The translations under genes were made by a program, and so were the position numbers. The notes under the pieces were generated by a model. The model searched no databases. It worked only from the letters and a program-made list of their open reading frames with translations, and was not told where the DNA came from. Shown one piece after another: positions 19,570 through 60,844 of a stretch of DNA of 64,000 nt (its first letter is position 1; each line of letters begins with the position of its first letter). The stretch is taken from positions 5,568 through 69,567 of IMG/VR virus record IMGVR_UViG_3300009545_000003, one strand, 5' to 3'. This DNA comes from a virus.

Positions 19570-19656
19570 TGTGCAAATACTGGATGATAAATTATACATT
19601 ACCTGTATGCACAAGTAAACCCTTGGTATCCCTGGATTTCCCTGGAGTGACCCTGG
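19570..19656 (+). repeat. dispersed palindrome + CCCTGG element, copy 1
   Basis: TGTGCA 19570...TGCACA 19613, then CCCTTGG/CCCTGG at 19620, 19630, 19640, 19651. Confidence 0.85.
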
Positions 19657-19687
19657 TATTAAACAAAATGATCAATTGGGTGATTAA

Positions 19688-20794
19688 ATGTCAACTGCGA
19701 TAGCATCTTCTAAGATTCCGTTCTTTGGGAGGGCGTGGTCTTTGACCGTTACTCCCAACACGGGTCCTAGTGCAGGAACTCCTATCGTTATCACGAGTGA
19801 CACTTTTGAACCTGAGCCACTACGAATGACTTTCGAGGTAACTCAACTTGCTTTTTCTGCCCTATGGCATGCTGAGATTACTATCTGGAATGCTAACGGT
19901 CCTATTTCATCAGGTCCTTCCAAAGGAATAAATCTGTATCAAGCAATAATTCAAGAAGGAGATATGGTAACTCTGTCAGCAGGTTACCAGTTTGATTACC
20001 CTTATCCTTCTATACCTCCTGTGATATGGAATGGACCGATATTCTTTACCATCCAAGATAGACCTGACGTTGTTGATCAGAGGCTGATTATTCATTGTCT
20101 CTTAAACCGAGCTTTGACTACTCAGAACTTTCTAAATGCCACATTGCCAGCTAGGTCCACTCAATTTAGCCAAGCTCAGTTCATCGCAGAAAATGCCATT
20201 AACAAAATTGGAATCAAACAGTCTCAAATCCAATCCGCTTTTTCTGCAGCTAAACCACAACGAGGATCAGGTAACTTACCAAGAGCGAAGACTTATTTTG
20301 GAAATCCCCACCACTACCTCAATAGATTAGCGGAGCAATCTAATTGTCTTTCTTGGTTTGATGCTACCCACTGGAATGTAGATACTATGCAGCAGCCTAC
20401 AGGACCATTAGTAGGAACCTATGCCCCTGTGATTCCTCTGGGTCCTCCACCTCAAACAGCAGGTAAGACGTCTTTTACTCTTATTGGTCAACCTAGACAG
20501 ACTCAACTTGGTGTTGACTTTAGGATACTCATAGATCCTTTAGTTCAAGTAGTAGCGCCACTAGTCAAAGTCGGACTGGCCATGCAATATATACGTCAAG
20601 CTCCAATTGCTCCTAATCCGAGAGGATCATTTCCTCCTCTACCTCTAGTAGACCAATACGTCGTTGTTGGAGTCTGTATTAGAGGAGACACTAGAGGTAA
20701 TGAGTGGTATACGGATATTACTGGAGTAGCACAGATTCTTACTGCTATTCAACTTCTTGGTCAGAGTGGACAGTCCGACCCGACAGGAAACTAA
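19688..20794 (+). CDS. baseplate hub protein
   Basis: FGRAWSL, AEITIWN, LSAGY and GDTRGNEWYT motifs. Confidence 0.8.
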   Translation: MSTAIASSKIPFFGRAWSLTVTPNTGPSAGTPIVITSDTFEPEPLRMTFEVTQLAFSALWHAEITIWNANGPISSGPSKGINLYQAIIQEGDMVTLSAGYQFDYPYPSIPPVIWNGPIFFTIQDRPDVVDQRLIIHCLLNRALTTQNFLNATLPARSTQFSQAQFIAENAINKIGIKQSQIQSAFSAAKPQRGSGNLPRAKTYFGNPHHYLNRLAEQSNCLSWFDATHWNVDTMQQPTGPLVGTYAPVIPLGPPPQTAGKTSFTLIGQPRQTQLGVDFRILIDPLVQVVAPLVKVGLAMQYIRQAPIAPNPRGSFPPLPLVDQYVVVGVCIRGDTRGNEWYTDITGVAQILTAIQLLGQSGQSDPTGN

Positions 20795-20796
20795 AA

Positions 20797-21507
20797 ATGC
20801 TTTCAATTCAAGAGAGACTAGGTCTATCGACAGAAGCAATTGAAGGAGCTTTGTGGCAATGGGCTTGTATGCTTCGAACGGCAATACCTGCGTACGTAGT
20901 CTCTTTTGATCCTGTGGCTCAAACTGTTACTGTTCAAATCGCTATCAAAGAAATTGTTCTTAAGCCGCCTCCGTCAACTAGGGCTACTCCTAGTCCAGGA
21001 GTAACTCAAAATATTCCAACAGATGAGTCTATAGACAAATTAGAAGATGTCCCAATTATGATGATGAGAGTTCCTGGATGGTCTCTTACTTTTCCTATAG
21101 TCGAAGGAACTGAATGTCTTCTAATTTTCTCTGATATGTGTATAGACGGGTGGTGGCAAAATGGAGGTTTACAGCCTCAAGCTGATCGTCGTCGCCATGA
21201 TCTTTCTGATGCGATGGCTTTATTTGGCCCCTGGTCTCAGCCTAACAATATTCCTAACTATTCAACATCTTCTGTCCAGCTTAGGTCAGATGATCTTACT
21301 GTGGTGGTCGATCTCAGTCCTTCTAAGATTTCTATCACTGCTCCTGCAATTGATCTTGTTTCAACCGGAGATATAGACATTCATGGTAAGAAAGTAACTA
21401 TCACTAGTGATGATGACAACACCACTATTGACGGTAAAGTCTTCTTACTACATACCCACTCAGGAGTAGCAACGGGTGGAAGTGATTCAGGACCGGTGAC
21501 ACCATAA
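20797..21507 (+). CDS. baseplate spike (gp138/gpV-like)
   Basis: P.YVVSFD, FP...G.ECLLIFSD..ID.WW, RRHDLSDA and terminal HTHSGV metal motif. Confidence 0.88.
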   Translation: MLSIQERLGLSTEAIEGALWQWACMLRTAIPAYVVSFDPVAQTVTVQIAIKEIVLKPPPSTRATPSPGVTQNIPTDESIDKLEDVPIMMMRVPGWSLTFPIVEGTECLLIFSDMCIDGWWQNGGLQPQADRRRHDLSDAMALFGPWSQPNNIPNYSTSSVQLRSDDLTVVVDLSPSKISITAPAIDLVSTGDIDIHGKKVTITSDDDNTTIDGKVFLLHTHSGVATGGSDSGPVTP

Positions 21508-21905
21508 TGGCAACTATCACAGTTAGGGCTTTAGACCCTGTCACGTGGGAACCACTTCAAGGAAATGGTCAAGATAGCTTTATATCTGATCTTCAGGCTG
21601 TAACTCAGATAATAGCTACTCGACTTAAACTATTTCAAGGTGAGTGGTTTCTAGATCTTTTAGATGGTTTACCTCTTTTTAACAGAATCCTCGGGTCTTC
21701 TGGTAGTGTAGTTAACCTTAAAGTCGTGGTGAATCTGATTTCGCAAAGAGTTAAGTTGTCACCATTCGTTACTTTAGTCACCAATGTAAAGGCTAGCTAC
21801 CAAAACAGAAGTTTTAAATTCTCAGCGGAAGCTGTTACTCCTTTTGGTACTGTCTACATTGTTAGTTCACCTGGCTCATCAGCCTCTCTCACAGTTTCTA
21901 ATTAG
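21507..21905 (+). CDS. baseplate wedge subunit (gpW/gp25-like)
   Basis: AV.Q.I.TRL.LFQGEWFLD...GLP. Confidence 0.8.
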   Translation: MATITVRALDPVTWEPLQGNGQDSFISDLQAVTQIIATRLKLFQGEWFLDLLDGLPLFNRILGSSGSVVNLKVVVNLISQRVKLSPFVTLVTNVKASYQNRSFKFSAEAVTPFGTVYIVSSPGSSASLTVSN

Positions 21906-21913
21906 AGGGTTAA

Positions 21914-24733: not shown

Positions 24734-27700
24734 TTGAAAAAGATAAGTTTGCTGCTTCTACTCATGTTTACAATTTCCCTTAGTGCTCAGACAATTACTA
24801 CTCCAAATGTAGGTTTAGAACTACCGGCTGCTGGGTCAACTAATTGGAATCTACCTCTTAACTACAACTTTAATCTTCTTGATCAGTTACTTGGTGGGTT
24901 AAAGACTTCTGGACTTAAGTTAGCGTATCAGCCTATTTTGTCTCTAGGTTCACCTAGTGCTATCTGCAACGCTAACAATAAAGGTCAGATGGACTTTGAC
25001 ACTACTACATCTCCTTGGACTCAGTATGCTTGTGATGGCATTAGTTCTTGGCATGCAGTTGGCGGTAGTGGTGGGGGAGGTGGAGGAGCTACTTTTCCAA
25101 CCTTACCTGGTATTGTTTGGAATACCACAACTCTAGCCTCCAGGAACGCCGTTTTTGGTGATATAGTTGGGTTATGGGGTAGTTGCACTGGATACCTTAA
25201 ATCTGATGGAACATGTTCTATTCCATCACCTGGTACATCAGGCACAGTAACACCTGACAGTAAGTACAACCGCGGAAACGGAATGTACTTAGTTGGTGAT
25301 TCTACCTCTATCGGTGGTGTTATTACTCTTTCAGGAGCCCCTGTTAATGGCACTGGAAGTTTTGACTGTCCTGGCCCGGCGAACGCAAACTGGGGTCAAA
25401 CATCTCTTCGTCTTGACGTCACTCCTTATCAATATTTTAATTGTGACAAGACAACTTCGACTTGGAAAGAAGGAACACCTCTCAACTCTACGGTCGAAAT
25501 GATCTTTGCAAATTTCAATCAGCAAAGCACACAACCGTTGAGCACGGGTGACTATCCGTACCCTGGCACTCGCTACTCAAATAGCGGCGGCATTCCTAAC
25601 TCTGGTAATGCTGCTTGTCTAGATGTGTATAACACGCAACTCTATGCGTGGGAAGACCCTGCTGATAATCGTCAGAACACCTACTTTCTTAACTGCGGAA
25701 TTGGCGACTGGCTTAACTGGGCTCACTCGATTGGATGGGGGACGATTGCCGATGGGCCTTCAACCATTGTCGGCACAATCAGAGCGGCTGTATCTTATGC
25801 TGGCACGCCTCGATCTGGCCGCATTCCTGCGCAATCTACATCATCGGTAACGACGTCAGGTACGTGGACAAATTTTGATCCTACCAATTCGTCAACGACT
25901 GTGAGCGGAACATGGGCAAGCGGTGCTGCGTCTGGCTCGATTACCACACCGGGCAGCATAGCGCATTACTGGCGCGTGTCGGACACCACAAACCCAAACT
26001 CGATACCGTCTGGAACATACGTCACTGTCATCACAGGCAGCGCGGTTACATTGTCAGCGTCTACAACGGCTGCTATCACTGGCGACACGTTGCTATTCTG
26101 GAACCCGTCTATCGCGCCGTTTCGTGCAGGCTACGCCAAGTGCGGCACGTCTGGCGCCGTGATGGAGTTCACTACTATGCCTGCATCGGGTGCACTCGAC
26201 TTTACGTACCTTATAGACGGCACACCGGGCACGGCAACAGCCAATATATCTATTGATGGTGTGGCGGCTGGATCAGTTAGTAGCGGTGACGGCGGCGCGT
26301 TCAGCACCGTGCACTATGCGCAGGCATGGTGGGCTAAGAGGTTCCTGCTAGTTGGTACCGCTCAGCACAAGTTTGACGTGACTGTTACATCGGGTTCATT
26401 CTGTCCAATCGAAGTGACTACCCCTAAGCCGATCGGTTGGGATGGTATGTCGCAACCCAAAGTTGTGCAAAGTATTATGCCGCCTGCGGGTGATGGGTAC
26501 AACGGTCTCGACAACTTAATATCTGAAGCACAAGTTTCTATCATTAACGAACTGAAAGGTGACGGATACAACATTAGTGCGGCTGATCTCTGGGGCGGGT
26601 GGCCTGAGTCAAAAGGTAATCTCACACCGGGCTTTGGTTTTCCGTTCTGCGTACACCATGCGTGCGTTTACAAGAACGGCATCGATGGTGTGTATGAGTC
26701 GTCGCCGCACTTCAACGTTGCTGGCAACACACTCAACGCATACACGAATCTGCAAGCAGCAGATCGTATACCTAACCCTGCGCCAAACTTGCTGCCGGGC
26801 ACGTCTGGCTTGCTCACTGTAGACAAGACACAGAGCGCGGCGATTACAGATGTTGATGCAACAAAGGTCGATGTACTCACAAATTCAAATACACATTCTA
26901 CGGGACCGCAAAATGTTCTCACTGGTGGGTACCTTAAAGTTGGTGAGAGGTATTATGCCGTGGGCAATCCAAACTCAAACATCATCACTAACAGTGGTAC
27001 GTTCACTGGTGGTTCTGCGGCCATATCTGTAACGGCAGGGCGTTCACTTATCGTCATCATGGACAACGCCTCTGTCGCCACTCTGTCTGGTGGTGAAGCA
27101 ACCATCAACAAAACACTCGGCACAGGTGGAGGATTCACAGTCTCTGGTACAGCAATCAAGAACGTGGTGGGCGGTACCGAGACGCTTACAATTTCACCAG
27201 CGGCAAGCACTACAACTTGGATTGAGTTCTCGAATCTAAACCAGACGACACCGTTCGAAGCTTCGACAGCGTTTGGCGTACTGCCTCAGTTCATAATTTT
27301 TCAGAAGCAGACTGAGAACATGCTGATCACAGCACCGGGAGATTTACTGATCAGCTTCAGTACACAAGGTTGCACCAATTTGAGCAACGCAACATCGACT
27401 CCACCGTGGACCGCACCAGACGGTATGACCACGTTTGTGCCTAGCGCTGGCAGTCTCACCGGTATGCGTGTGTGGACCGGAGTAACACCCCCACTGGGCT
27501 CAGTGAACTATACGCTTACACCGGGCCGTCATTGTACGTCCATCGATAACGGTGACAGGTACTACGGACTATTTGCGGTGCGCCCCTCATTCGCAGCTAA
27601 TCAGAGTGCACACGTAACTGAGTGGGTCGATGAAAACGGCGTGCTTCAATCATGGGTAGATCGCGCTGGAGCACCGGGCGGAAATCTTGCGGCTGGTGGT

Positions 27701-31937: not shown

Positions 31938-31979
31938 ACGCCCTGCATCTCTTCGGAGGTGCAGGGCGTTCTTGTGTTT
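31938..31979 (+). terminator. terminator between convergent arms
   Basis: 14-bp stem with C(TTCG)G loop and T-rich tail. Confidence 0.85.
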
Positions 31980-32462: not shown

Positions 32463-32928
32463 ACAGTTCCTTTCGTTTCTCCAGTCTGATTCGGTTAAAG
32501 GTTTCTACGCCATGCCCGTCTACGAGATAAGGGCCCTTGGGTAGCCAGATTAAAGGATTGTCATTACGTTTTCTATTGTATAACGCTAGTAAATCCAGGG
32601 GTATCAAGGCGGTTGTGCAAGCAACTGGATGATATATAATATATAAAACGGTTGCACACCGGGCCAGGCGTTTACAAACTTCGTACTGGCGCAGATCATT
32701 TACAGCATCCCAGGGCTGGCAAGACGGAACACCGTCATGAATCTGTATAGCGTCTTTTGCTTCATTAATCTTTATTTCAAAGAACGTCACTACCCCTGAA
32801 AATGCATGGTATGAATCAGGTAAACCAAGAGTAGTGCGGTCACTGCTTTTGATCACAGTGCCGCCTATCTCTTGTTTCACTCTATTAGAGAACGTCGCAT
32901 TGAAGTAGTTCTCTCTCACTCTAACCAC
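32422..32928 (-). CDS. PD-(D/E)xK nuclease (VRR-NUC/Holliday junction resolvase-like)
   Basis: E..F, GLPD, FFEIK and Q motifs. Confidence 0.7.
   Translation of the reverse strand: MVRVRENYFNATFSNRVKQEIGGTVIKSSDRTTLGLPDSYHAFSGVVTFFEIKINEAKDAIQIHDGVPSCQPWDAVNDLRQYEVCKRLARCATVLYIIYHPVACTTALIPLDLLALYNRKRNDNPLIWLPKGPYLVDGHGVETFNRIRLEKRKELYDRLKIEQSGADA
32591..32658 (-). repeat. dispersed palindrome element, copy 2 (degenerate, intragenic)
   Basis: TGTGCAA 32614...TTGCACA 32658 with CTGGATGATA core; AAATCCAGGG box on the left. Confidence 0.6.
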
Positions 32929-44348: not shown

Positions 44349-44355
44349 ATCATCC

Positions 44356-45782: not shown

Positions 45783-46093
45783 AGTCCAGGATTTCTTTCC
45801 ATGAAGCTTACAAGGTAATTCTGATAGAATTGACCTTTCTTATAATTCTCAAGTTCAATTCCCTTTTCCTTGGCACGGTCATTGTACTTGTAAACATTCC
45901 CCTTTAAGAATCCGATAAATTCTTGAGGAGTCATTCGATTCTCAAGTACTTTAATCGTTTCATAGACAGTGTCTCCACCATAATGAGATGGATGATTAAT
46001 GGTTTCACTGGATTGTAACGGAACTTCCGTCATTACTTTCGTCAGTTTCTCCAATACTGGCGTCTTCTTTCTTGAGCCCTTGGATTCTTTCAT
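45779..46093 (-). CDS. DUF3310 (T7 gp1.7-like nucleotide kinase) protein
   Basis: INHPSHY..E.I...GFLKGN.YKY..RA..KG. Confidence 0.8.
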   Translation of the reverse strand: MKESKGSRKKTPVLEKLTKVMTEVPLQSSETINHPSHYGGDTVYETIKVLENRMTPQEFIGFLKGNVYKYNDRAKEKGIELENYKKGQFYQNYLVSFMERNPGL

Positions 46094-46380
46094 TCTCTTT
46101 TTCCTCTTTTCTTTTCGTTAAAAACGCATGCACTTCATCAAGAAGCTGTGTGTCTCCTAAGGTAGTGTTAAACACAAACTCACACTTAGGTAGGAGTTCT
46201 GGGGGTAGAGCGGGTGTGAATTGGAATATCGATCTATCCCCACTAAACAGCCACTCTAACGCTCGTGATGCATGATCTCTAGCACTGAGACCTTGCTTTT
46301 TTGCTTCTTCTCTTAGATTGTCAAGAGACTTACGGGTTAAGTCAATGTGGATCGCCACTTTTCTCCTTTTTCCTTGGTTA

Positions 46381-46476
46381 ATTTGTGCAAATCCTGGATG
46401 ATAAAATATACACCAGCATATTGCACAAATGACCCTGGGTTATCCCTGGATTTCCCTGGAGTGACCCTGGGTGATT
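46381..46476 (+). repeat. dispersed palindrome + CCCTGG element, copy 3
   Basis: Perfect ATTTGTGCAA/TTGCACAAAT inverted repeat at 46381-46430; CCCTGG at 46433, 46444, 46454, 46465. Confidence 0.9.
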
Positions 46477-50050: not shown

Positions 50051-51559
50051 TCAGAATGGCACATCGTTTTCCTCCTGCATTATTTCTGCTACCCAGCGTG
50101 AAGTTGTCCACTCTGCGAGTTTTTCATGATTACGAAGAGCTTTCAAAATTATACCGCTTGCTGTTCGTTCTCTGTTTGGTCCGACAACAACATAGTCTTG
50201 GAATAGAGCTTGGAATCGTTGACCTGGGCGATGTACTCTATCTTCACTCTGGGCTCTAGTTAGTAGAGAGTGATCGTTGGATAGATAGTCGACGTTGGAA
50301 CACTTAGTGAAGTTATGACCAAACCTTCCGGCCTGTGGCTGACCAATAAGGAGAGCCGGGCCTTCTGGATCTGGTGAATCTGGACGAAAGAGAGAAATAG
50401 CGTCTGACCTAACAGTTTTAGACTGTCCTCCTTGTAGCACACGAACTTCAAGTCCTTCGAACCTCTCTTTGGCCATTCTTTCAAGACGAGCAATTTCTGG
50501 TCTAAACCTACACCATGTAATAAGTCTGAATCCAGGGTCTTGTTCAATCCTGAATTCAAGATAGTCCAAGAACGAAGTCGTAAGTTCACATCCAACTTCC
50601 ACAACTTGAGGTTCATCACTTTCTTCATCTTTCACACCACCTAAGAATCCTGAACAAATCTGCGCCAGTCTAAGTGACTTGACTGGCGCAGTAGTTACGA
50701 CAGATACTTCATCTGTATTATTAAGATAAGCTACGAATTCGTCCCTCATCGAGCAGTAAATTTCCCATGTCTTAGATGACAACTTTACTTCACGAAGGGG
50801 CGCTTTCATTTTAGGAAGAATATCTAGACACTGAGATTTTAGTCTACGCAACACCCACGGCTTTATCTTAGCTTGTATTTCTTCTATATAGTAAAATCCA
50901 ATGATCTGCTTATTCATGTAACCACCCATTTTAGCGTGGTGGTTTCGGAAAGCATAGTAGTTTTTGAAACCTAATATAGCAGGATCTAAGAAAGCGAACT
51001 GAGAATATAGACCAAGAATTGAGTTACCTACTGGTGTGCCATTCATGATAGTTCGTCGAGATGCTTTAGGTCTAATCATCATGACGCCCTTAGTCTGAGC
51101 CGCTTTGAAATTGGATATGGTAGATGATTCATCTACTACAGCCCAAAACTTTCTACCAGCTAGCATTGCTAGGAGATTTCTAACGTGAGCAATATTTCTC
51201 AAAAGCTCTACGGATACTACAACCCACAGTAAACCCTTTGACTTGTCTGGCAGCCTAACACTACGACTAGTAAACTCGTGAATAATGCCAGGAACGAAAC
51301 TATGCTCAATAATCTGAGAAAATGTTGGGTGAATCCACACGTCTTTAACTTGTGCTGGACAAATGATAAGAACACAATCTATCTCCTTATGCTCATATAA
51401 GAAACACGCAGTATCAATAACTTGCTTTGTCTTGCCGGCTCCCATTTCATCAAGAAGGCCAAACGCCGCATTATTGTACAGAGCTTGAACACCATCAAAT
51501 TGGTGATCAAAAGGTACATATCGGCACTTAGACCAGTCAAAAGACCGCACGTCTTGCAT
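50051..51559 (-). CDS. SNF2-family SF2 helicase
   Basis: DEMGAGKT, VDES, GTP, LRRLK and QSEDRVHRPGQ. Confidence 0.92.
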   Translation of the reverse strand: MQDVRSFDWSKCRYVPFDHQFDGVQALYNNAAFGLLDEMGAGKTKQVIDTACFLYEHKEIDCVLIICPAQVKDVWIHPTFSQIIEHSFVPGIIHEFTSRSVRLPDKSKGLLWVVVSVELLRNIAHVRNLLAMLAGRKFWAVVDESSTISNFKAAQTKGVMMIRPKASRRTIMNGTPVGNSILGLYSQFAFLDPAILGFKNYYAFRNHHAKMGGYMNKQIIGFYYIEEIQAKIKPWVLRRLKSQCLDILPKMKAPLREVKLSSKTWEIYCSMRDEFVAYLNNTDEVSVVTTAPVKSLRLAQICSGFLGGVKDEESDEPQVVEVGCELTTSFLDYLEFRIEQDPGFRLITWCRFRPEIARLERMAKERFEGLEVRVLQGGQSKTVRSDAISLFRPDSPDPEGPALLIGQPQAGRFGHNFTKCSNVDYLSNDHSLLTRAQSEDRVHRPGQRFQALFQDYVVVGPNRERTASGIILKALRNHEKLAEWTTSRWVAEIMQEENDVPF

Positions 51560-51584
51560 AACCCGTTTTTCCCTTCAGATATTA

Positions 51585-51812
51585 GGTAACTTATTCACGG
51601 CTCCTAAACATACACTCGGCATGGTGTTCCCGATTACGGAGTATCTTTCCGGGTCGGTTGAGTGTACAAACTACATCCAGTCTTATGGCCAATCTTTCGC
51701 TCTCAGACTAGTAGAGCCGTGAATAAGGTACCCGACTGGTTTGGCTCCGCAAAGTAACCGCCAAGTAAAATCTCTGCGCCGTACCTTCCAGTCTTATCTT
51801 TACGGTGTTACC
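51585..51812 (+). ncRNA. candidate structured RNA or ssDNA element
   Basis: 14-bp perfect stem 51590-51603/51714-51727 enclosing nested stems. Confidence 0.45.
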
Positions 51813-52090
51813 CTTATCGGGTAATTTCTTCATCTTCTTCATCTGGATCTTCAGGACCAGAAAATCTTGCCCGAAGAATTACCTTACACTTTTCTTCAGA
51901 AAATCTATAAGGATTCTCATAGATTTCTGCTAGAAGCTCAGATTCCCCATCATAACTTACTCGAACCAATAGAAACTGACAATCAGGTTCTACAGGAACA
52001 ACCATAAGTTTGTCTTCGAACCCCAGGCCTTCTTCATACTCCGGCACCAAATCTTCTGGTAATCCAAGAGCAACATCAAAAGGACTGGCG

Positions 52091-52609
52091 TCAACTCGAA
52101 TGAGCAGCGCCGTCGATGCCATTTTTCTCCTCTAGAGAATTTATGAATCCGTTGAGAGTGGGCCAATAATAGGGGGCCGATATATCTATCGTCTCGTCTT
52201 TCCAGAACTGGCCGTAGTGTTGCGGGAATTTTCTTACAAGATTACATCTGTGAGAATAGTGGAACTCCTCGCAACCTAACCAGGCTGGAGGTTCTTGTGA
52301 ATCTGTATCGTAGCTGGGAACTACTATAGAATTAATGTAACCTCTTGAGCACCACTCACCTATCGCACACGCTATATATAATTTGAGCCATTCTTCATGA
52401 CCCGACCACATCTGTACGGCAGGGTGTCTACGCCAGTGAGAAAAAGTTCGATCGAAAGGAACTAACGTGCCTAGACTCTGAGGGAGATACGGTTTGTTCT
52501 CCAAGATCTCTAGAATCTGGCCTGCTTCTACCCGTTGTTTTCCGAGTCTTCTAAGATCTAGAAACTCCATCGATTTTACAAATGAAGTTACAGGTAGAAA
52601 GGTTTGCAT
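52091..52609 (-). CDS. pyrimidine dimer DNA glycosylase (MSMEG_6728/endonuclease V-like)
   Basis: MQTFLP, LD.RRLGKQRVEA.QIL, W..HPAV.MW.G and SHR.NL.RK. Confidence 0.85.
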   Translation of the reverse strand: MQTFLPVTSFVKSMEFLDLRRLGKQRVEAGQILEILENKPYLPQSLGTLVPFDRTFSHWRRHPAVQMWSGHEEWLKLYIACAIGEWCSRGYINSIVVPSYDTDSQEPPAWLGCEEFHYSHRCNLVRKFPQHYGQFWKDETIDISAPYYWPTLNGFINSLEEKNGIDGAAHSS

Positions 52610-52610
52610 G

Positions 52611-52817
52611 TTAAGCTGCCATCTCCTCAGGCCAGATTACTTCGATTGATTCCCCAACAGCACTTGCAATTGCTTTCATCGTTTTAAGAGTGACATTTTT
52701 TCCTTGTTTAGCATTCCAGAGCGTCATCCTAGTCAAACCAGTAGTTTCACAGATTTGATCATCGGAAATTCCTTTCTGCTCCATTAATTCGGCAATTCTA
52801 TTTGCGTGCACTGACAT
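52611..52817 (-). CDS. Cro/XRE-family HTH regulator
   Basis: I.ELM..KGIS...I...TGL.R.TL...G.NV.L.T...IA. Confidence 0.85.
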   Translation of the reverse strand: MSVHANRIAELMEQKGISDDQICETTGLTRMTLWNAKQGKNVTLKTMKAIASAVGESIEVIWPEEMAA

Positions 52818-52876
52818 AATACTTCTTCTCCTATGGTTGGCAGAATCGTTTGTTATATGATTTACTCTATAGTATT

Positions 52877-52906
52877 ATTATATAACAACTTAATATCGGA
52901 TGTAAA
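52877..52906 (-). promoter_or_regulatory. sigma70-like promoter TTTACA-N18-TATAAT
   Basis: Near-identical to 58634-58663; upstream of the Cro-like gene. Confidence 0.7.
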
Positions 52907-55358
52907 ATACTTTTTAAACTTTGTTTCATCGCTTATTTAGGTGTACAAGTGTTAAGAAGTCTTCCCATTGTTTAGATTCACCGTCTAATTCATAATGATC
53001 ATAGTGCTGTCCACAAAGTCTTTCAAAACCTCCTTGTGACTGTATCGAGTAAATTAAAGAAGTACCCCAAGGAAATTTCCATTCATGAGTTCCTGCATTT
53101 AGTAGACCATTGAGTTTAAGAAAGATATCGAAATGTTCCATCTCAAAATCTCTCTTACTTTTCTCTGAGGCAAAAACATAAAGAATTCTAGAATTTGGAG
53201 TTAAAAGATTCTTGAAGAACTGACGTTCTTGCTCAATTTTAGAAATCAGACTCCGTCTCAGTCCAGAAGACTGTGTCAATCTGAATTTCGGGTTCTTTGG
53301 GTTCTTCACCGCCTCCACGAACTGAGAATAGAAGCTTGATGAGGTAACAGAGTCCTTGTTCGTATTCTTCGCTGTCATAGTTTCCTATCCATTCTGAGGT
53401 TATTCGTAGCTCACCGTTATAGCCACGTAATTCGTAGTATCTACGCCATGAAAGAGCATGAACTAGCGTAGGTAAAGGCGACGAATTAAGAGGAACGTTA
53501 AAAGAGTCTACTACGTTGTATTCCCGTCTCTCCACGTAATATCCTCACGATCTGATCTTCATGCATGCAGATGTTTCCTAGCCTGTTTAAAACGTCACTG
53601 GCCTGCATTCTAGCTTCATCTACCCAAACATATCCCATCATGCCATCTTCTTTGAGGTGATCTGAAGCATGCCATAGAAAGTACATAGCGTCATTCGTAG
53701 TTTCAGGCCAATAATCCCAATGAAACTCCTCCGGATTAGGTTCTGTAACCCAGCCATAACTGAACCGGTCACAGATTTCAATCGCGCAGTCTAGAACAGG
53801 ATCATCAACAGACCACCGTCTATACAATACAAGAGCAGTACAACTCATTTGATCCTCTCATAGTTGCATTCACGCTCTATCGAACTAACAGCTGTTGACA
53901 TGGAGGTGTACGGCCTTGGATCTCTGTAAGGATCTGCAATGAATATTTTCTCATCAAGTTGAATCAGTTCTCCGCAGATTTTACCATTAACTTTTAAGAC
54001 CCAAGTGCTGTCCTTAGAGTTAAACCATCCTGTTGCCAACTTGTTCATTTCGGTAAGACAACCTGCAAGATAGGCAACGCCTATCAGCATGGTTACTAGA
54101 ACGTATTTCATGAACGTTTTCCATCCTGTTCTATCAGAATACTTTCAAAAGCTGTTGCTGGAAATGAATGCCAACCGCATTCAGATTGAAAGTGCATTAC
54201 TCCAGTCTTACGATTGTGAGTCAACTTATAAATCTCACCATCATATCGGCTACACGGACCGTCATGTTCTTTTAGTCTCAATCTCATCCACATCGAGTGC
54301 TCCTTCTCTGGGCTGCGCCTCTCGGGATCGAGCAGCTATTCCCGTCATTGCACTAGCACCGTTTTTCCATGCCTGTATGTCTTGCTTGAGCGCGGCATTC
54401 TCGCCCTGTAATCGGCAGTTCACTTGTTGCAGATGGCTCAGATCATGAATGTGCGTAGCATTCGCTACTTCCAAATCGTGAATTTTGATCAGCGAGTTGC
54501 CATATGCGGAGCACAGTTCTTTTCCTTTGCGCTCGAAGTCGTCTCTCTCGGTGCGCAATTGCTCAATGTAAGATTCGGGAGCATAAACCTGTTTCTGTAG
54601 CTCACTGATCTGCTGGGCCTGGAGGGCTGAGTATTCTTCAATCCACGTCGCTACATCAGCGACATCTAGATTACGTGAAGACGTGAAACCCTTTTTCCAT
54701 AACCATTTCTTAATGTTCTCATGAATGTCTTCTCCTATTTTTCCTTGGCATACATGCGTATCAGTTATGCAGTTATAGGCTTTACCACATTGGCTGCAAA
54801 CTACTGGTCCACCTATAGTTTGTTCCATTTTACCCTCCAGTCACTTGCTGATCTTCTTCAACCTTAATCTGTAATCTACGCTGCAGAGCATTCGCTTCCT
54901 CAATATTCTTATTGAGTATAGCAAGTTGAAGGGCAATTTCTCCATGAAACACGATCTTTGCTCTTAGAGTCATGTCTTTGAGATTAGTCGTGAACATATC
55001 GATGGTCTGCTGAATTTCTCCTGGCGACATTAAGTGCATTCCTTTCTGTTCCATATACTTTCCGTTAGTCAAGACGTACATCGTAGTTTGATCGCTTTCG
55101 AATCCACTTCCAACAATCTTGTGACAACCAATGCAGAGATAGTGCCAGCTTCCTCGTATTCCGAAAGATGTGTGTTGACTGAGTGCCGTATCAAAGATGA
55201 TTTTAGGGCTCTTTTGGGAGCAGCTTTCACACCTTTGGCTTCTGATCGGATTCATCTGGCTCAGCCCTCGTTGGTAGTAACATACCATTACTATTGCGAC
55301 AGTATACGTTTCCTGAAGGTTTATGAAAATAGAACTCAGTCTTAGTCTGCTTGGATAG

Positions 55359-55384
55359 GTCTGGAGATCTTACGATCTCCAGAC
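55359..55384 (-). other. perfect 11-bp intergenic hairpin with GTAA (GNRA) loop
   Basis: GTCTGGAGATC-TTAC-GATCTCCAGAC. Confidence 0.7.
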
Positions 55385-56710
55385 TACAATGCTTACAGCG
55401 TATCACGCGTCCTCCGAAAAACTTCTTTCTGGCATTGAAAAAGCGTGTGGAATCCCACAGATATTCGTAAGGTGCTTCTGGTAGTTTTGCATTCGACGGG
55501 CTATTTTGTTAGCCCAAATTTGTGCAGTGGTTTGGTCTTGAAAGCCGTTGTGTAAAACCCGGTCTTTCTCGATCGTTATGTCAACATAGAAGGGCTCACT
55601 TTCTGTTCTCTGTGCTATTATTACAGGCACTTTTCTCCCCTTTACTTCAGTTTGAGATACCCGCTTACTCCTTCCTTTTCTATAATATCTGGTCCTAGCC
55701 AACTCTCGAGAGACTCTATGGCTTTCTTTAACGCTCTCTTGTGTCCTTCAGAGCCCAGATTCTTGAAACGATATTTATCTAGTACGTGATCTCCTAGAGT
55801 AACTAGGATATAGTAAATCACTTAGGTTCCTCTATCCATGTAAATACTTTAAATGCACCTATAGCTCCTAGATTCTCCTCAATTTCAAAAGAACTGCCGA
55901 TTTGTTTTTCCATCCACTCTAGGATGTGGGGAAGTTGGTAAGAAATCTCATTTAATGAGCCGCCGCCTGTGTTGAATCTGGCGCGGTATCTCTTCTCGCC
56001 ATCTCTATCAGGCTCAACAGCTAGCCAACCGTGATACTTCTTCGGAAGTTCTGGCTGTGAGTGTTCTGGCTGTGAGTATTCTCTCACGGCGTTTATTTCG
56101 TCCAGTAATTCCTGGATAGGTCCTAATACCCAACCGCGGCCATCACACTCAGAACAGATTTCCTGTGACCCGTCATCTTCGATAAGAGTCGTGTGCTTTG
56201 CTCCACCACACGACTGACACTCAAGCCTAAAGTCTTCAGGCACCGTTTCCCAGTTCACTTCTTGGTCAAGGATCATGCTGACCTCCTATAAGTGCCAGCC
56301 GTTTGAACATCAATTCTGTGCTGAACTCTAACTAGCTCAGATTTAGAGAGTTTATCGGTAATTTCGAGTAAATCACCTGGGAGGCAAATTCTCTTAATCG
56401 AGTTATCTTCACTTGTATAAACGTACAAGTGGCATCTTACTCCAGAATCATTTTTGACGTAGACACTATGCTTCATGTGATTTCACCTGCCTTAGGTATT
56501 CTGTTTCTGATAATCCAGTTACCCAGCGTCCTCCACGATTGTATACGTTATGAGCTGCGCAGGCTCCACACATTAAGTAGCCTCGTCTGTCTTTTTCATG
56601 GTATACTATTGTCTCAGCTATTCTTCCACAAGGAATATAGCTATTTATAGACAGTGTGCTTGCTTCTTGGCAGAGTGATCCTTCAGGAAGTTTTATGAGA
56701 GGAATATCAC

Positions 56711-56869
56711 TCATTCTCCACCTCCTGCTCTCTTTTCCTTACGAAGCCGATCTTTCTCCATCTGAGCCCAACGAGTTTTCTTTGTTGGGTTGTTACGTTT
56801 CGTGTGCTTCTTGCACGCGTATCTATTTCCTAGTCTACGTCGTGCGGCCTTACCTGTGGCGTTCGCCAT
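56711..56869 (-). CDS. 52 aa Arg/Lys-rich peptide not in the ORF track
   Basis: Hand translation MANATGKAARRRLGNRYACKKHTKRNNPTKKTRWAQMEKDRLRKEKRAGGGE; ATGA overlap with the next gene. Confidence 0.55.
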   Translation of the reverse strand: MANATGKAARRRLGNRYACKKHTKRNNPTKKTRWAQMEKDRLRKEKRAGGGE

Positions 56870-57668
56870 CCTTCGCTCTCCGATTACGACTACTCCGTCG
56901 TCGGTTAAGTGTTCTTTACAATTCGCTCTGTGAAATCAGGAACAAGAGCAATCACATCATCGAGAAATTTTTGACCCTCAGCAACAGTAGGCTTACCGTG
57001 ACTAATATTGTTGATAGATCGGTTGATGAGTTGAAATCCCACTACTAAAAGATTCTTGAGTTTTTCTTCTTCAGTCATAGTCCCATTTACTCCCTACTGT
57101 TGATATCTGTTAGATAGTCTTGAAGGCCGCTAATTCTTTGACCTTCAAACTTGTGTTCAAAATGAATTGGGTAACCAGAGCCAGAAGGAAAAACAGTGAT
57201 AGATTCTCCTGGTCTTCCTTTGTTAACAAATCGGTTTATTTTCTCTCCGAAGTGTTCTTCAGGCTCCCACCCATGCGCGGCCAGAATTTTGACCGCGCGC
57301 GAGTTGATGACAGAAAGCTTAAGACTCATCATCTTCCTCCAGAGTAAAGGCTACGTCACTTTTGAAGATTGAGCCATTTTCTTCAAGCATTTCACAGTCA
57401 GACTCATCCAGAGAAAAGATTTCTTTGGTTTCATCATTCCAAAGATACGTTTCCTCAAGATTTGAATTCGGCCTTTCGACTATCAAAAGCTTAGCCATTA
57501 GACCTCTTTTCTTTGAGTGGTCTTCCAGGTTTCCCGAGAAGAGTGTTGGCGGCCTTACGGAAGATAGAGGCCTGCATCTTAATTCTCATAGCCTCTGCAT
57601 CTAGTTTGGAGGCTTCCTTCATGATTTTCGTGGCAAGGTTACTTTTCATTGTTTCTCCTTAAAAATTA

Positions 57669-57780
57669 TGGCGGCGTCTGCAGTTTGTGCGTCTGCATCT
57701 TCAGCATCTTTTCTAGCCGGTTGTACACCCTGCACTAGCGATTACTGCTGTTCTCACCTTTGACACTAAGGCCACCGCCA
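57669..57780 (-). ncRNA. candidate cloverleaf-like structured element
   Basis: TGGCGGTG/CGCCGCCA closing stem with three internal arms; fills an intergenic gap. Confidence 0.4.
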
Positions 57781-58633
57781 GCTCAAACTGAAATAGATTT
57801 CGAGTCATCATTCCAACCCATCACTTTGTCATCATTTTCTCTAATGGCAGTAGTCAGTTCATTCAACCTATTCTCTACTTCTTTAGAGACTTTCTCTGCT
57901 CTAGCAAGAGCTAGTACTTCCATTGCCATTATAAGCAAATCCCCAGTAGAAACCATTTCTTTGTTAACAGGCATTTTTCTTCTCCTCTTTTCGATGAATT
58001 CGTTTCATCCACCATTCTGAAATCCAGTGCATTCTTAGACTAAAGACTCGTCGCATCCAGATCAATTCTTCGCCTTTGTACTCTCCGTACACTATGACGA
58101 AAAGATCTATACACTTAAATCTGTGTGTGCCGTTGCAAAGGCAAGAGTTCATGGAATAGCGCCACGTTACTCTCTCATCGAGAATCTCAGAGAATAATTC
58201 CTGCGTCATTTGAAAGTCAGACACTATTCTACCTCCCATGGCTGGAGCTCACGAATATTGTTGCTGATCTCCTCAGCATAGACTCCAGTCTCATCTATTC
58301 GTGTTATTCGGTAAGAAATCGAACCAGTGCCTGGAGCGGCAGCATGGTGAACTACTGTATCTCCAATTTTATTAAGTTTAACTGCTCTAATATAACAATC
58401 GTATGGTTCTTCTACACCTTCACCTGTGAACACTGTAGGTGGATAAATCTTCTCTTCAGCCTGCATCGTCGTCTCTCCATCATGCGAATCGTCGCATTCG
58501 GTTGATGTTACTTAGGTAACTCTCACTACTTACTTTCATCACAATATTAGTGTATTGCAGTTAAATTTCTAAATACACAACCCAAAATTGTGATGATACT
58601 AAGTAGTAACTAATTTTTCACTATCATAATTAT

Positions 58634-58663
58634 ATTATATAACAACTTAGTATCGGTTGTAAA
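58634..58663 (-). promoter_or_regulatory. sigma70-like promoter TTTACA-N18-TATAAT
   Basis: 28/30 identical to 52877-52906; AT-rich intergenic region. Confidence 0.7.
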
Positions 58664-59653
58664 TAACAATGTTAAATATATTTTACAAGAACTACAGACA
58701 TACAAATTCCTCCTCATCAGAATCATAGTCACGTACAGTTATCCACTCTTTTTTCTCTCGAGGATACATTGCAAAGTGAATGAACTCCACAATCCAACCA
58801 TCCTCTTTTAGGCGTGTCTTACAGTGGTATCTAAAGGAATGGAGTAGTTTTGAACTCATTAGCTTTGGTGTTGGAATAGCCACCGTTCCATATGACGGCC
58901 CACGTTCTTCGAATGAATAGCAAAGAAACACTAACAAAACGTCTGCTGCTCTTGCTGTCAGATCTGGTGGAGTTCTCTTTACTCTGTACTTCTCCACAAA
59001 CTCAGTTTCGATCAAAAGCTTTGTCTCGTTCTTGATCTTAGATGTGTGAACTGGTGGCATTACTTCAATCTCCGAATGAGAAGACCTTTTCTGATTCTTT
59101 CAACATCCACTGCTGCCGTTTCTATCCACTTGTCTACTACAAAATCTATGAGTCCGGCATAGACCATTTCTCCCATAGAGTATGGAACTTTATAACACGG
59201 ACAGTCTGTCGTAAGGGATCCTTCTGCTCCACCACACATAGAGCAAATAAATAGATTGCAGATGTTACAAGTTACATCAGCACAATTCTCATGAGTTGTT
59301 CTTTCGTGCTTCATACTGTCTCCTTATGCCATAGCTTAGGCTGAGTAAGAGCCTCATCTATCTTACGGCTTACTTCTGGCCAGTTATAGTCTCTAGCATA
59401 CCAATTACCTGAAGTCACTATTTCTGTCTTAGCAAGTATTAGCGCTTCATAAAGATTACCTATCCGTTCGATAAGCAAAAGTTCTGATAGTCGCCCAATC
59501 TCACCAGGCATTTCAGTGCTTTCAGTCACAGGGCCACGAACCCACTCATCTAATAAGGTCCATCGTTCTTTTAAATCTTCAGGTATCTTCATATGTTCTC
59601 CTTAAAAATAGGGAGGCCACCCCTACCCAGAAGTCAGCCTCCCTTATGAAGCC

Positions 59654-60457
59654 CTACCAGGGCAAGTTAATATCAATAGGTGTGTTTCCGTCTAGTAATC
59701 TAGCACGGACAATTTCAAAGGTGTGTGACCCGGGCACTGTTCCTTGATACTCAGTCTGAAACTGCGGATGACGTAAAGGTCCTCCCCATTTGGCCGCGAT
59801 GAGTGGAATGTTCACAAACTTGCTACTGAAAGCAGTGAACACTTCGCCATTTTGAGACATTGCAAGCGAACTCCAACGTCCTCCATCACCGATAACGCCA
59901 TTCCACCACCATCTAAAGCGGATATCGTTAATAGCTGTAATTCCGCTTGTAGAATCCGTTAGTAGCATTGGAGTTTTAGGGTTGAATCCAATATCTTGCC
60001 AACCTTTACCATCAGGGTCATACTGCCAACTCTTACTGTCGCGATTCCACTGGTGAGATTCGTTCATTTGAGCTTTAAGAGTAGCATTTCCTGCAGCATC
60101 AAGTTGTTTCGTGCCATCAGCTACCATGACCTTGTCGTCAAGTTCGAGTCTCATGATAGTAGCCCAGTCAGCAGATGTGATGATGATCTGAAAATCATAA
60201 CCGAACCACATTGGAGATCCAACCGGGTTAGGCGTGAATGGATAACTCTTACTGACTAGTCCCCCACCACCGTCAACCTCGGTATAGTTCGTGATAACCA
60301 TCGGTTTGTTTTGATCCCCATCAGTATAACCATCAAATAGCTTAGACGGCTTTGGGTTTACATCGGAACTGATTTTCGAAGCGTATTGATCTGACTGAAT
60401 GAAATCAATACACCTAAATGAGGTGCTTACGTTTTGAGTTGTTGTCTTACTTGGCAT
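59654..60457 (-). CDS. beta-rich hypothetical protein
   Basis: AAGGAG RBS, Trp-rich; AGGGAGGC/GCCTCCCT hairpin downstream. Confidence 0.6.
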   Translation of the reverse strand: MPSKTTTQNVSTSFRCIDFIQSDQYASKISSDVNPKPSKLFDGYTDGDQNKPMVITNYTEVDGGGGLVSKSYPFTPNPVGSPMWFGYDFQIIITSADWATIMRLELDDKVMVADGTKQLDAAGNATLKAQMNESHQWNRDSKSWQYDPDGKGWQDIGFNPKTPMLLTDSTSGITAINDIRFRWWWNGVIGDGGRWSSLAMSQNGEVFTAFSSKFVNIPLIAAKWGGPLRHPQFQTEYQGTVPGSHTFEIVRARLLDGNTPIDINLPW

Positions 60458-60751
60458 TTTTACTCCTTGGGGTTAATTGCCTGAAGCCAATTTATACGTT
60501 CCTCCAGGTTTGTGTTGCGCTTGTTTGTACTGCTCAAAAGTATATTCTACGTCGCTCGTAGGGAATACCATCACATCTACACCATTCAATTTAGAGATGA
60601 CTATAACGTCGAGCAATTTAGAGATACGGATCATATCTACAATTGCTTCGTCAACACCTCCAGTAGCAGGTGATCCTAGTCTTAACTCCATTCTCGCCAT
60701 ATGTCACCAATGTTTTGAGTTTAAAATACCGTTAGCAAAATTACATTTGCC

Positions 60752-60844
60752 AATCACCCAGGGTCACTCCAGGGATATCCAGGAGTATCGCAGGGTGACT
60801 TGTGCAAATATGGATATAGTAATTATCATACCCAGCCTTGCATA
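60752..60844 (-). repeat. dispersed palindrome + CCCTGG element, copy 4
   Basis: Reverse complement contains TCCCTGGAGTGACCCTGGGTGATT as in copy 3; TGTGCAA 60801...TTGCATA 60844. Confidence 0.88.

What the first reader, a model, noticed from the sequence alone, without database searches (positions are those of the whole stretch)
19570..60844. Four near-evenly spaced palindrome + phased CCCTGG elements in alternating orientation
Seen: an imperfect 44-45 bp palindrome TGTGCA(A)...(T)TGCA(C/T)A with an AT-rich centre starts at 19570, 32614, 46384 and 60801, giving gaps of 13.0, 13.8 and 14.4 kb. Each is flanked on one side by CCCTGG-like boxes, at 10-11 bp spacing (one helical face) in copies 1, 3 and 4, with orientation +,-,+,-. 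The copies ignore module boundaries: one interrupts the baseplate operon and one degenerate copy lies inside a nuclease ORF. That suggests selection on position rather than on local transcription. The boxes contain CCWGG. Inference: a genome-scale cis system such as programmed nick/ejection-pause sites, DNA organisation or looping anchors, iteron-like origins, recombination sites, or modification/restriction decoy sites. I recognise no described equivalent. No fifth copy was seen near 5-6 kb.
Basis: partly seen in the sequence, partly recalled or inferred. Interest (0 to 1): 0.85.

Follow-up and report, generated by a model that had tools for sequence, protein, structure and literature searches.

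The report
Dispersed phage palindrome-plus-boxes control element
Four copies of a roughly 90-base DNA signal (a palindrome next to short repeats spaced one helix turn apart) in an uncultured soil phage are real and shared with its relatives. They sit at fixed places between genes and follow the direction of transcription, so they look like protein-bound gene-control sites, and their even spacing looks accidental.

Summary
The 69.4-kb phage genome has exactly four copies (window 19570, 32614, 46384, 60801). Each has a 44-45 bp imperfect palindrome beside CCCTGG-type boxes 10-11 bp apart, on alternating sides. Copy 2, inside a nuclease gene, is not background: against the sister phage only 1 of 21 amino-acid-identical codons under it has a synonymous change, versus 43 of 96 elsewhere in the gene.

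The positional reading does not hold. Five related 60-79 kb phage contigs carry the same element at the same gene junctions. These are downstream of the primase gene (separated by one or more short ORFs), before the baseplate hub, between sheath and tube, and at the end of the late arm. Copy number there is 2-6 and gaps run 4-39 kb. Polarity follows local transcription: 13 of 13 unambiguous copies away from the primase read palindrome then boxes, and all 12 primase-side copies read boxes, palindrome, ribosome site, gene. CCWGG is not kept in the relatives.

Best reading (about 0.5): a family-specific transcription-control cassette, made of a symmetric promoter/operator core plus a one-sided, helically phased protein-binding array. 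The binding protein and firing direction are untested. The even spacing (post hoc P about 0.003-0.006) is probably coincidence.

The scan has noted similar phased palindrome modules in other uncultured phages.

The parts
19570..19613 (.). Copy 1 (class a), palindrome core. It lies between the 141-aa virion protein gene and the baseplate hub gene.
   Evidence: E 4.5e-23 for the whole element; same junction occupied in 5 of 6 genomes
19620..19656 (+). Copy 1, four boxes at 10, 10 and 11 bp spacing. They lie downstream of the palindrome in the direction of late transcription, 32 nt before the hub start codon (19688).
   Evidence: hub = phrog_196
32591..32658 (-). Copy 2 (class d'): two boxes (32595, 32605) plus palindrome (32614-32658), overprinted on codons 91-113 of the nuclease-like ORF 32422-32928 (- strand).
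   Evidence: E 0.018, not in the seed set; ORF conserved full length in 5 relatives; synonymous change suppressed, P 3.5e-4
46384..46427 (.). Copy 3 (class c), palindrome core. On the - strand it is followed within about 30 nt by a ribosome-binding site and the GTG start of gene 46005-46358.
   Evidence: E 3.6e-25
46433..46470 (+). Copy 3, four boxes at 11, 10 and 11 bp spacing. They lie upstream of the palindrome in the direction of (- strand) transcription. The last codons of the small ORF 46440-46655 run into them.
60758..60795 (-). Copy 4 (class e), four boxes at 11, 10 and 11 bp spacing, downstream of the palindrome in the direction of (- strand) early transcription.
60801..60844 (.). Copy 4, palindrome core, between small early genes 60862-61038 and 60473-60700 (both - strand).
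   Evidence: (E 6.8e-19)
46005..46358 (-). Gene directly behind copy 3. The N-terminal 40 residues look like a ribbon-helix-helix DNA-binding domain, making this a candidate box binder in this lineage only.
   Evidence: CopG is the only PDB sequence hit, E 0.35; local Foldseek matches to CopG/Arc, TM by target 0.61-0.71, all non-significant; orthologues only in G000 and G001 among six genomes; also in L011
39201..39629 (-). Winged-helix-like protein. Paralogues at 101-484 and 1262-1561 belong to the same family. The 39201 and 101 paralogues each have an orthologue in all five related phages. The family is a candidate binder with no direct link shown.
   Evidence: pLDDT 80-89 over residues 50-120; winged-helix neighbours, none significant

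Best explanation
The four copies are a transcription-control cassette specific to this family of uncultured soil myophages.

Anatomy, shown by the sequences:
- The core is a symmetric site in which two TGCA-containing end motifs lie a constant 40 bp apart around an AT-rich centre.
- On one side only there are up to four short, nearly palindromic boxes one helical turn apart, so they sit on one face of the DNA.

Mechanism, inferred:
- The end motifs resemble -35 hexamers, and the centre offers -10-like hexamers 17-18 bp away on both strands. RNA polymerase could therefore use the core in either direction.
- A phage DNA-binding protein coats the box array and decides what the core does.
- At the primase-side copy the array lies upstream, and the core fires into the next gene as an activated promoter.
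- At all other copies the array lies downstream of the core in the direction of transcription. There it would act as an operator or roadblock on sense transcription, or drive antisense RNA.

The same factor could thus switch several transcription units at once. The near-even spacing in this genome follows from the sizes of the gene modules between conserved junctions.
For: (1) Conserved placement. The element sits downstream of the primase gene (separated from it by one or more short ORFs) in 12 of 12 contigs (G000 plus loci L001-L011). It sits before the baseplate hub gene in 5 of 6 whole genomes, and in loci L012 and L014, which are other contigs (L013 and L015 are stretches of G001 and G004). 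It sits between sheath and tube genes in 3 of 6, and at the late-arm end in 3 of 6.

(2) Polarity follows transcription. At 13 of 13 copies flanked by same-strand genes or lying inside a gene, away from the primase, RNA polymerase would meet the palindrome and then the boxes. One further weak copy (G004 10041) agrees. At all 12 primase-side copies the order is boxes, palindrome, ribosome site, start codon.

(3) At the primase side the following gene differs between relatives while the element stays. Gene 46005-46358 has no homologue in G002-G005. This is what a portable promoter would look like.

(4) Constraint acts on the DNA. Between G000 and G001 the 30-base windows over the boxes of copies 1 and 3 are about 100% identical, while the palindrome interior drops to about 50-70%. 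Copy 2 suppresses synonymous change inside an ORF.

(5) The span between end motifs is 40 bp in 17 of 24 elements (range 39-42). Arm complementarity within a copy is barely above that between copies: 7.1 versus 6.35 of 14, with 57 of 5000 permutations reaching it. Sequence, not hairpin stability, is what is kept.

(6) Box spacing of 10-12 bp is kept across relatives even where the box sequence has changed.

(7) -10-like hexamers scoring 5 of 6 or better occur in 16 of 22 elements in each direction. The consensus scan calls copy 1 on the - strand as TTTACT-17-TATAAT.

(8) A ribbon-helix-helix-like gene follows copy 3, and a winged-helix family is conserved in all relatives.
Against: - There are no transcript data. 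No RNA run holds the phage, so no start site, direction or timing is known.
- The generic sigma-70 scan finds no more promoter-like sites than in shuffled sequence, and it flags only copy 1.
- -10-like hexamers are expected in any AT-rich 20-mer, and they are equally good in both directions.
- If the core fires away from the boxes, every copy except the primase-side one makes antisense RNA. If it fires toward them, the primase-side copy is antisense.
- The late-arm-end copies of G002-G004 and copy 2 have no obvious gene to serve.
- The ribbon-helix-helix gene is missing from G002-G005, so it cannot be the general binder.
- No binding has been shown for any protein.
- One weak hit (G004 50578, E 0.003-0.03, inside an ORF) has the opposite polarity. 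I set it aside.
- Canonical strong early promoters of a different kind exist elsewhere in the genome.
Confidence: 0.5

Rival explanations
1. Replication origins or initiator-loading sites. The boxes would act as iterons for a phage initiator and the AT-rich palindrome centre as the unwinding element. Several origins per genome would resemble T4 (T4 comparison recalled).
For: - Direct repeats lie beside an AT-rich segment.
- The one universal copy lies downstream of the primase gene, separated from it only by short ORFs, in 12 of 12 contigs.
- A winged-helix family is conserved in all relatives.
Against: - The boxes are 10-11 bp units one turn apart. From recall, classical iterons are about 17-22 bp and two turns apart.
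- There are 2-6 copies per genome, including inside tail-gene operons.
- Polarity follows transcription, not any single fork direction.
- Cumulative GC skew only mirrors gene orientation and shows no inflection at the copies.
Confidence: 0.12
2. An RNA-level signal. The transcribed palindrome would form a hairpin followed by repeated motifs. It could serve as a processing site, a stabiliser, an antitermination loading site or a translation control for the next gene.
For: - Polarity is co-directional with transcription at 13 of 13 unambiguous copies away from the primase.
- On the transcribed strand three of four hairpins fold better than shuffles, with z of -1.96, -3.72 and -2.17.
- In G004 the hub-side copy is squeezed against the start codon, and its one box overlaps the ribosome site (read by eye).
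Against: - Arms are only about half complementary, and copy-specific pairing is weak.
- Copy 1 folds no better than shuffles, z -1.14.
- There is no strand preference in folding.
- A 10-11 nt period has meaning for double-stranded DNA, not for RNA.
- The primase-side copy would give the complementary RNA.
- No T-run follows the palindromes. The terminator scan flags none of the palindromes; its one weak hit inside an element (46466-46484, +) lies in the last box of copy 3 and the sequence after it.
Confidence: 0.1
3. One reading: a position-selected, genome-scale system. Candidates are programmed nicks, ejection or packaging pause sites, and looping anchors on a five-fold grid of about 13.9 kb with one vacant node.
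For: - The three gaps of 13.0, 13.8 and 14.4 kb and the fourth of 28.2 kb fit a fifth-of-genome grid within 7% of a period. This happens in 0.13% of random trials for k = 5, and in 0.4-0.6% when k = 4-8 are all allowed.
- The sister phage G001 keeps the pattern.
- Copy 2 was created inside a gene in this lineage instead of at the late-arm end used by relatives.
Against: - Spacing is not kept in G002-G005, where gaps run 4-39 kb and best grid arcs are 0.13-0.55.
- G001 is syntenic with G000, so it is not independent.
- Positions are fixed gene junctions, and polarity follows transcription.
- There is no fifth copy.
- The statistical test is post hoc.
- Contigs from three other samples show no joints at the copies, though contigs cannot show nicks.
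Confidence: 0.07
4. Mainly recombination seams: conserved cassettes at which gene modules are exchanged, as proposed for PeSLs. Any regulatory role would be secondary.
For: - The gene after the primase-side copy differs between relatives, and the 4 kb after it (42.4-46.4 kb) is variable.
- Copy 4 lies in the variable early region.
- A single base in the box spacer differs between G000 and G001, but is the same in copies 1 and 3 within each genome. This hints at homogenisation between copies.
- A contig in run X3 carries a G001-like palindrome interior next to G000-like flanks (table 7).
Against: - Copies a and b lie inside fully conserved structural gene blocks.
- Copy 2 lies inside a conserved ORF.
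- A seam role does not explain helical phasing, constant core length or polarity.
Confidence: 0.06
5. Decoy or target sites for a CCWGG-specific methylase or restriction system.
For: In this genome the boxes contain CCWGG.
Against: - Boxes in G002-G005 are CCTGAG, CCTAGAG, TCAGG and similar, mostly not CCWGG, while their spacing and position are kept.
- CCWGG is not avoided elsewhere: 114 sites in 64 kb.
Confidence: 0.02

Closest known systems
PeSL (promoter-early stem-loop) cassettes of T4-type phages (PMC2839356 and PMC4122927, abstracts read)
   Same: Both are small conserved composite regulatory cassettes repeated between genes of a myophage. Both combine a palindrome or stem-loop with promoter-like sequence. 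Some copies here border variable gene blocks.
   Different: - PeSLs are a strong sigma-70-like promoter plus an effective terminator hairpin, many per genome, concentrated in hyperplastic early regions.
- Here there are only four copies.
- They also occur inside tail-gene operons and inside an ORF.
- No T-run terminator follows the palindromes.
- There is a one-sided array of helically phased boxes, and a fixed polarity rule.
Intergenic repeats of halovirus HF2 that carry promoters (PMC8707807, abstract read)
   Same: Both are dispersed intergenic repeats with AT-rich motifs. In both, sequence and relative genome position are conserved across a virus genus. HF2 produces long counter-transcripts.
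   Different: HF2 is an archaeal virus with archaeal promoters. Its repeats are 58 and 29 bp without a palindrome-plus-box layout. Promoter activity was shown there by reporter assay; here it is untested.
Stoperators of Cluster A mycobacteriophages (PMC9283540, start of abstract seen in the search listing; site size, copy number and orientation recalled)
   Same: Both are repressor-type sites scattered through a phage genome. In both, orientation follows the direction of transcription and the site acts on elongating polymerase.
   Different: - Stoperators are single short asymmetric sites present in dozens of copies in temperate phages.
- This element is about 90 bp and composite, with 2-6 copies.
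- The phage has a lytic-type gene set.
- One class of copy is always reversed.
Operators of ribbon-helix-helix repressors and centromere binders such as CopG, Arc and ParR (recalled; CopG and Arc appear as hits)
   Same: Both have short, nearly palindromic subsites one helical turn apart on one DNA face, next to or overlapping a promoter. Here a ribbon-helix-helix-like gene lies directly behind copy 3.
   Different: That gene exists only in G000, G001 and L011. The fold evidence is below significance. The arrays also occur far from the gene and in relatives that lack it.
Iteron-type replication origins (recalled)
   Same: Both have direct repeats next to an AT-rich segment, here with one copy beside a replication gene.
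   Different: The repeat unit and period here are half the usual size. There are several copies per genome, including in structural operons, and polarity is tied to transcription.

Membership tests
Sigma-70-type promoter | -35-like and -10-like hexamers 16-18 bp apart | tested here: inconclusive
   The consensus scan calls only copy 1 (- strand, 10 of 12 matches) and is not enriched over shuffles. My fixed-frame scan finds -10-like hexamers in 16 of 22 elements in each direction.
Sigma-70-type promoter | Mapped transcript start | not testable with these tools
   No RNA run holds the phage.
Sigma-70-type promoter | Lies upstream of a gene with a ribosome site, on the same strand | tested here: met
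   Met for all 12 primase-side copies in the boxes-to-palindrome direction. For the other classes it is met only in the opposite direction, through the boxes.
PeSL cassette | Stem-loop that is an intrinsic terminator (hairpin plus T-run) | tested here: not met
   None of the four palindromes is called terminator-like; the scan's one weak hit inside an element (46466-46484, +) lies in the last box of copy 3 and beyond, not in the palindrome. Hairpin energies are -9.6 to -18.6 kcal/mol, and three of the eight folds (copy 1 on both strands, copy 4 on the + strand) are no better than shuffles.
PeSL cassette | Flanks variable genes in hyperplastic regions | tested here: inconclusive
   True for copies 3 and 4 and for the late-arm-end copies of relatives. 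False for the hub and sheath/tube copies and for copy 2.
Stoperator-type dispersed repressor sites | Orientation tied to the direction of transcription | tested here: met
   13 of 13 unambiguous copies away from the primase share one polarity, and 12 of 12 primase-side copies share the other.
Stoperator-type dispersed repressor sites | Single short asymmetric site in dozens of copies (recalled) | tested here: not met
   The element is about 90 bp and composite, with 2-6 copies per genome.
Iteron origin | One locus per replicon with repeats of about 17-22 bp, two turns apart (recalled) | tested here: not met
   The period is 10-12 bp, and there are four loci in this genome.
Iteron origin | AT-rich unwinding segment beside the repeats | tested here: met
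   The core between the end motifs is 62-84% A+T in the four copies.
Ribbon-helix-helix operator array | Subsites one helical turn apart on one face | tested here: met
   Spacings are 10/10/11, 11/10/11 and 11/10/11 bp.
Ribbon-helix-helix operator array | Cognate ribbon-helix-helix gene present wherever the array is present | tested here: not met
   A profile of the N-terminal domain finds it only in G000 and G001 among the ORFs of six genomes. It is also in L011.
Programmed nick sites (T5 or phiKMV type, recalled) | Strand-specific interruption at the site in virion DNA | not testable with these tools
   Only assembled contigs of metagenome runs are held.
CCWGG methylase or restriction target | Box core is CCWGG | tested here: not met
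   Met in G000 and G001. Mostly not met in G002-G005.

The most novel reading that the evidence does not exclude
The cassette is a direction-setting switch of a kind not yet described. A symmetric promoter core could fire either way, and its direction at every copy is set by whether one phage protein coats the phased array on one side. A single factor would then, at the same moment, turn on the nucleotide-metabolism/polymerase operon behind the primase and flip the other copies from sense to antisense or blocked output. That would time early, middle and late genes across the whole genome. In this lineage the need for a copy near the arm junction was strong enough to write one into a nuclease gene. 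A weaker variant is that the five-fold grid in G000/G001 is itself selected.
Probability: 0.13. Interest if true: 0.75.

Novelty: new variant of a known kind. Interest (0 to 1): 0.45.

Why it matters
Gene regulation in uncultured soil phages is almost unknown. This work defines a conserved 90-bp control element with a clear grammar:
- a core of constant length;
- a one-sided array phased with the DNA helix;
- polarity locked to transcription;
- one class of copy that is always reversed.

It gives short lists of sites and of candidate binding proteins that can be tested in vitro without growing the phage. It also gives a clean example of a regulatory element overprinted on a protein-coding gene and visible as a hole in synonymous divergence. 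Finally, it warns that striking regular spacing in one genome can dissolve once relatives are compared.

Tried and rejected
- Close cultured relatives. Megablast of 4 kb against the phage collection gave no match. Portal and primase proteins reach only about 35% identity or less to cultured phages. No annotated relative could be used.
- Family names for flanking small proteins. PHROGs and Pfam gave nothing for 32422-32928, 33059-34057, 46005-46358, 46440-46655, 60473-60700, 60862-61038 or the winged-helix paralogues. Nineteen of 30 further early-arm ORFs had no PHROG hit. No RNA polymerase, sigma factor, integrase or nickase was seen among those tested, but many ORFs were not tested.
- Homologues of the ribbon-helix-helix-like protein. 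Only itself and the G001 form were found.
- Expression. No RNA holder is listed.
- Rearrangements. Contigs of runs X1-X4 laid on 44000-62000 show no joint at copies 3 or 4. The loose ends at 46441 and 46470 come from the 30-base identity with copy 1. Contigs cannot show nicks or ends.
- GC skew. It follows gene orientation only.
- Strict palindrome scan (15 of 20 pairs or more). It missed all G000 copies, which shows how imperfect the arms are.
- Hairpin or covariation reading. Only weak support.
- Promoter direction from -10 scoring. It came out as a tie.
- My first search pattern had the wrong length and found only copy 3.
- Resemblances of the core to sigma-54 promoters, DnaA boxes, Fur boxes and NtrC/TraR sites were considered by eye. 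They were dropped because spacing or matches did not fit. These are recalled consensus sequences, not tool tests.
- Supplements of the papers cited were not opened.

Full report
WHAT IS THERE. The window is 64 kb of a 69,567-bp virus contig. Its first 123 bases recur at the end, so the map is a circle of 69,444 bp. Structural genes run on the + strand up to about 31.9 kb (portal, baseplate hub and others). Early and replication genes run on the - strand from 64 kb down to 32 kb: SNF2-type helicase, primase, helicase, nucleotide enzymes, DNA polymerase.

The four sites are exactly as described. TGTGCAA opens a 44-45 bp imperfect palindrome at 19570, 32614, 46384 and 60801. CCCTGG-type boxes at 10-11 bp spacing lie to its right in copies 1 and 3, and to its left in copies 4 and 2. 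Copies 1, 3 and 4 have four boxes and copy 2 has two. The box arrays of copies 1 and 3 are identical over 30 bases.

A profile built without copy 2 finds exactly these four places in the genome, with copy 2 at E = 0.018. A broader profile finds no fifth copy. A scan for the end motif at the right span, combined with the two profile searches, gives no other credible core.

COPY 2 IS REAL. It lies in ORF 32422-32928 (- strand). That ORF is conserved over its full length in all five relatives and has a PD...ExK-like motif (seen by eye). Against the sister phage G001 the element is 96% identical while the surrounding coding DNA is 71%. Of the 21 amino-acid-identical codons under the element only 1 carries a synonymous change, against 43 of 96 outside it (Fisher P = 3.5e-4). 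The more distant relatives have no element at this place in the gene. Three of them instead carry one in the non-coding end of the late arm. So this lineage has written a working copy into a coding sequence.

RELATIVES. Protein-guided searches of viral contigs gave 25 loci. I read five whole records:
- G001: 67.8 kb, about 90% protein identity.
- G002: 79.1 kb. G003: 71.4 kb. G004: 60.2 kb. G005: 63.6 kb. These four are at about 60-70% identity.

The element occurs in all of them at recurring gene junctions (genes called with my own greedy ORF script):
- (a) Between the 141-aa virion protein and the baseplate hub, in 5 of 6 genomes.
- (b) Between the sheath-size and tube-size genes, in G002, G004 and G005.
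- (c) After the primase and a small conserved ORF, in 6 of 6 genomes and in every other primase locus: 12 contigs in all.
- (d) At the end of the late arm, in G002, G003 and G004.
- (e) Among small early genes, in G000, G001 and G003.

G002 also has two palindrome-only sites.

ANATOMY ACROSS THE FAMILY. The span between the two TGCA end motifs is 40 bp in 17 of 24 elements, 41 in 4, 42 in 2 and 39 in 1. The centre is AT-rich. The best-conserved positions are the end motifs and the boxes.

The interior is only about half self-complementary. Arms of one copy pair barely better with each other than with arms of other copies: 7.1 versus 6.35 of 14, with 57 of 5000 permutations reaching this. As RNA the hairpins are modest, -9.6 to -18.6 kcal/mol, with no strand preference. 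What is conserved is therefore sequence at fixed distances, which points to protein recognition of duplex DNA rather than to a hairpin.

Box sequence drifts between clades: CCAGGG in G000, G001 and L011, and CCTGAG, CCTAGAG or CCTGGG elsewhere. The period of 10-12 bp stays. This removes the CCWGG link. Between G000 and G001 the 30-base windows over the boxes of copies 1 and 3 are about 100% identical, while the palindrome interior is the fastest-changing part of the region.

POLARITY. Every copy flanked by same-strand genes or lying inside a gene, other than class c, has the palindrome first and the boxes second in the direction of transcription. That is 13 of 13, and a weak fourteenth (G004 10041) agrees. 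For the three class d copies the flanking genes converge. In G002 and G004 a strong hairpin followed by a T-run for the late strand lies beyond the boxes (read by eye). These copies therefore sit in the late 3' untranslated region with the same polarity. G003 has no clear hairpin.

Class c is always the reverse: boxes, palindrome, then a ribosome site and start codon about 23-40 nt further on. One weak hit (G004 50578, inside an ORF) has the class c polarity; I set it aside.

SPACING. The gaps are 13,044, 13,770, 14,417 and 28,213 bp. Random placement, either uniform or among the 42 intergenic gaps of at least 40 bp, gives three gaps this alike in 0.26-0.36% of trials. It gives a grid fit this good (k = 4-8) in 0.43-0.63%. 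The test is post hoc.

G001 keeps the pattern but is syntenic with G000. G002-G005 do not keep it. Their gaps are 4.1-38.9, 8.6-31.5, 4.0-36.3 and 29.8-33.8 kb. The regularity therefore comes from the module sizes of one lineage and is not a conserved property.

MECHANISM. The end motifs resemble -35 hexamers. On both strands, -10-like hexamers lie 17-18 bp away (read by eye). A hexamer scoring 5 of 6 or better is present in 16 of 22 elements in each direction. The core can thus be read as two fully overlapping, oppositely directed promoters, or as a symmetric operator.

The box array, on one face and one side, is the layout of cooperative binders such as ribbon-helix-helix or winged-helix proteins (recalled).
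- The gene right behind copy 3 has an N-terminal domain whose only PDB sequence match is CopG (E 0.35). Its model superposes locally on CopG and Arc (TM by target 0.61-0.71, not significant). It is absent from G002-G005.
- A winged-helix-like family with a disordered basic N-terminal tail (disorder from the model; basic composition read by eye) is present in all six genomes.
- Neither protein is shown to bind.

I conclude that the element is a transcription-control cassette, and that the direction of firing is open. The simplest consistent model is activation at class c, where the array is upstream. At the other classes, where the array is downstream, the model is blocking or antisense output. 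The phage also has ordinary strong early promoters of another type, so this is a separate, regulated class.

COMPARISON AND NOVELTY. The nearest described things are PeSL cassettes (PMC2839356, PMC4122927), HF2 intergenic promoter repeats (PMC8707807) and stoperators (PMC9283540). Each shares one or two features and fails on others (see the membership table). My two literature searches for this layout returned no description of a palindrome of fixed span with a one-sided phased array and this polarity rule. Subscription journals are not covered by those searches.

Notes from this scan report similar phased palindrome modules upstream of early promoters in other uncultured phages. They are unchecked and are not counted as support, but they suggest the general kind is common. 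I rate this a new variant of a known kind and of moderate interest. The overprinted copy 2 and the polarity rule are the parts most worth following up.

Noticed in passing
window 58630-58668 and 52876-52906 (- strand); also about 2.58 kb before the window start in the genome: A second repeat family: near-identical strong sigma-70-type promoters (TTTACA, 18 bp, TATAAT; 11 of 12 matches) in intergenic gaps of the early arm. They are probably the true early promoters.
   Followed up: partly
window 32422-32928 (- strand): Nuclease-like ORF conserved in all relatives. Codons 91-113 (those under copy 2) show almost no synonymous divergence from the sister phage. This is an example of a cis element overprinted on coding sequence.
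   Followed up: yes
window 46440-46655 (- strand) and its positional equivalents in L001, L003, L006, L011: A small ORF (60-75 aa) lies between the primase gene and the class c element in the loci I read (G000, L001, L003, L006, L011). In G000, G001 and L011 its last codons are encoded by the boxes themselves. It has no family match.
   Followed up: partly
window 31938-31969 (+); G002 about 35012-35052; G004 about 27600-27640: Strong GC-rich hairpins with T-runs end the late arm. In G002 and G004 the class d element lies between the last late gene and this terminator. In G000 the terminator directly follows the last gene.
   Followed up: partly
window 46384-46427 versus run X3 (table 7): A contig from another rhizosphere sample matches G000 up to the end of the palindrome, then continues with a G001-like palindrome interior. 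The core interior varies between co-occurring strains.
   Followed up: no
window 36495-38761 and 43677-45782 (- strand): dCMP deaminase, two thymidylate-synthase-like genes, a nucleotide kinase, a methyltransferase and a glycosyltransferase cluster in the early arm. If cytosines are modified, the C-rich boxes would be too.
   Followed up: no
G002 14183-14222: A near-perfect 18-bp-arm palindrome with the same end motifs lies directly after the major-capsid-size gene. Its arms contain the G002-type box sequence, and there is no flanking box array.
   Followed up: no
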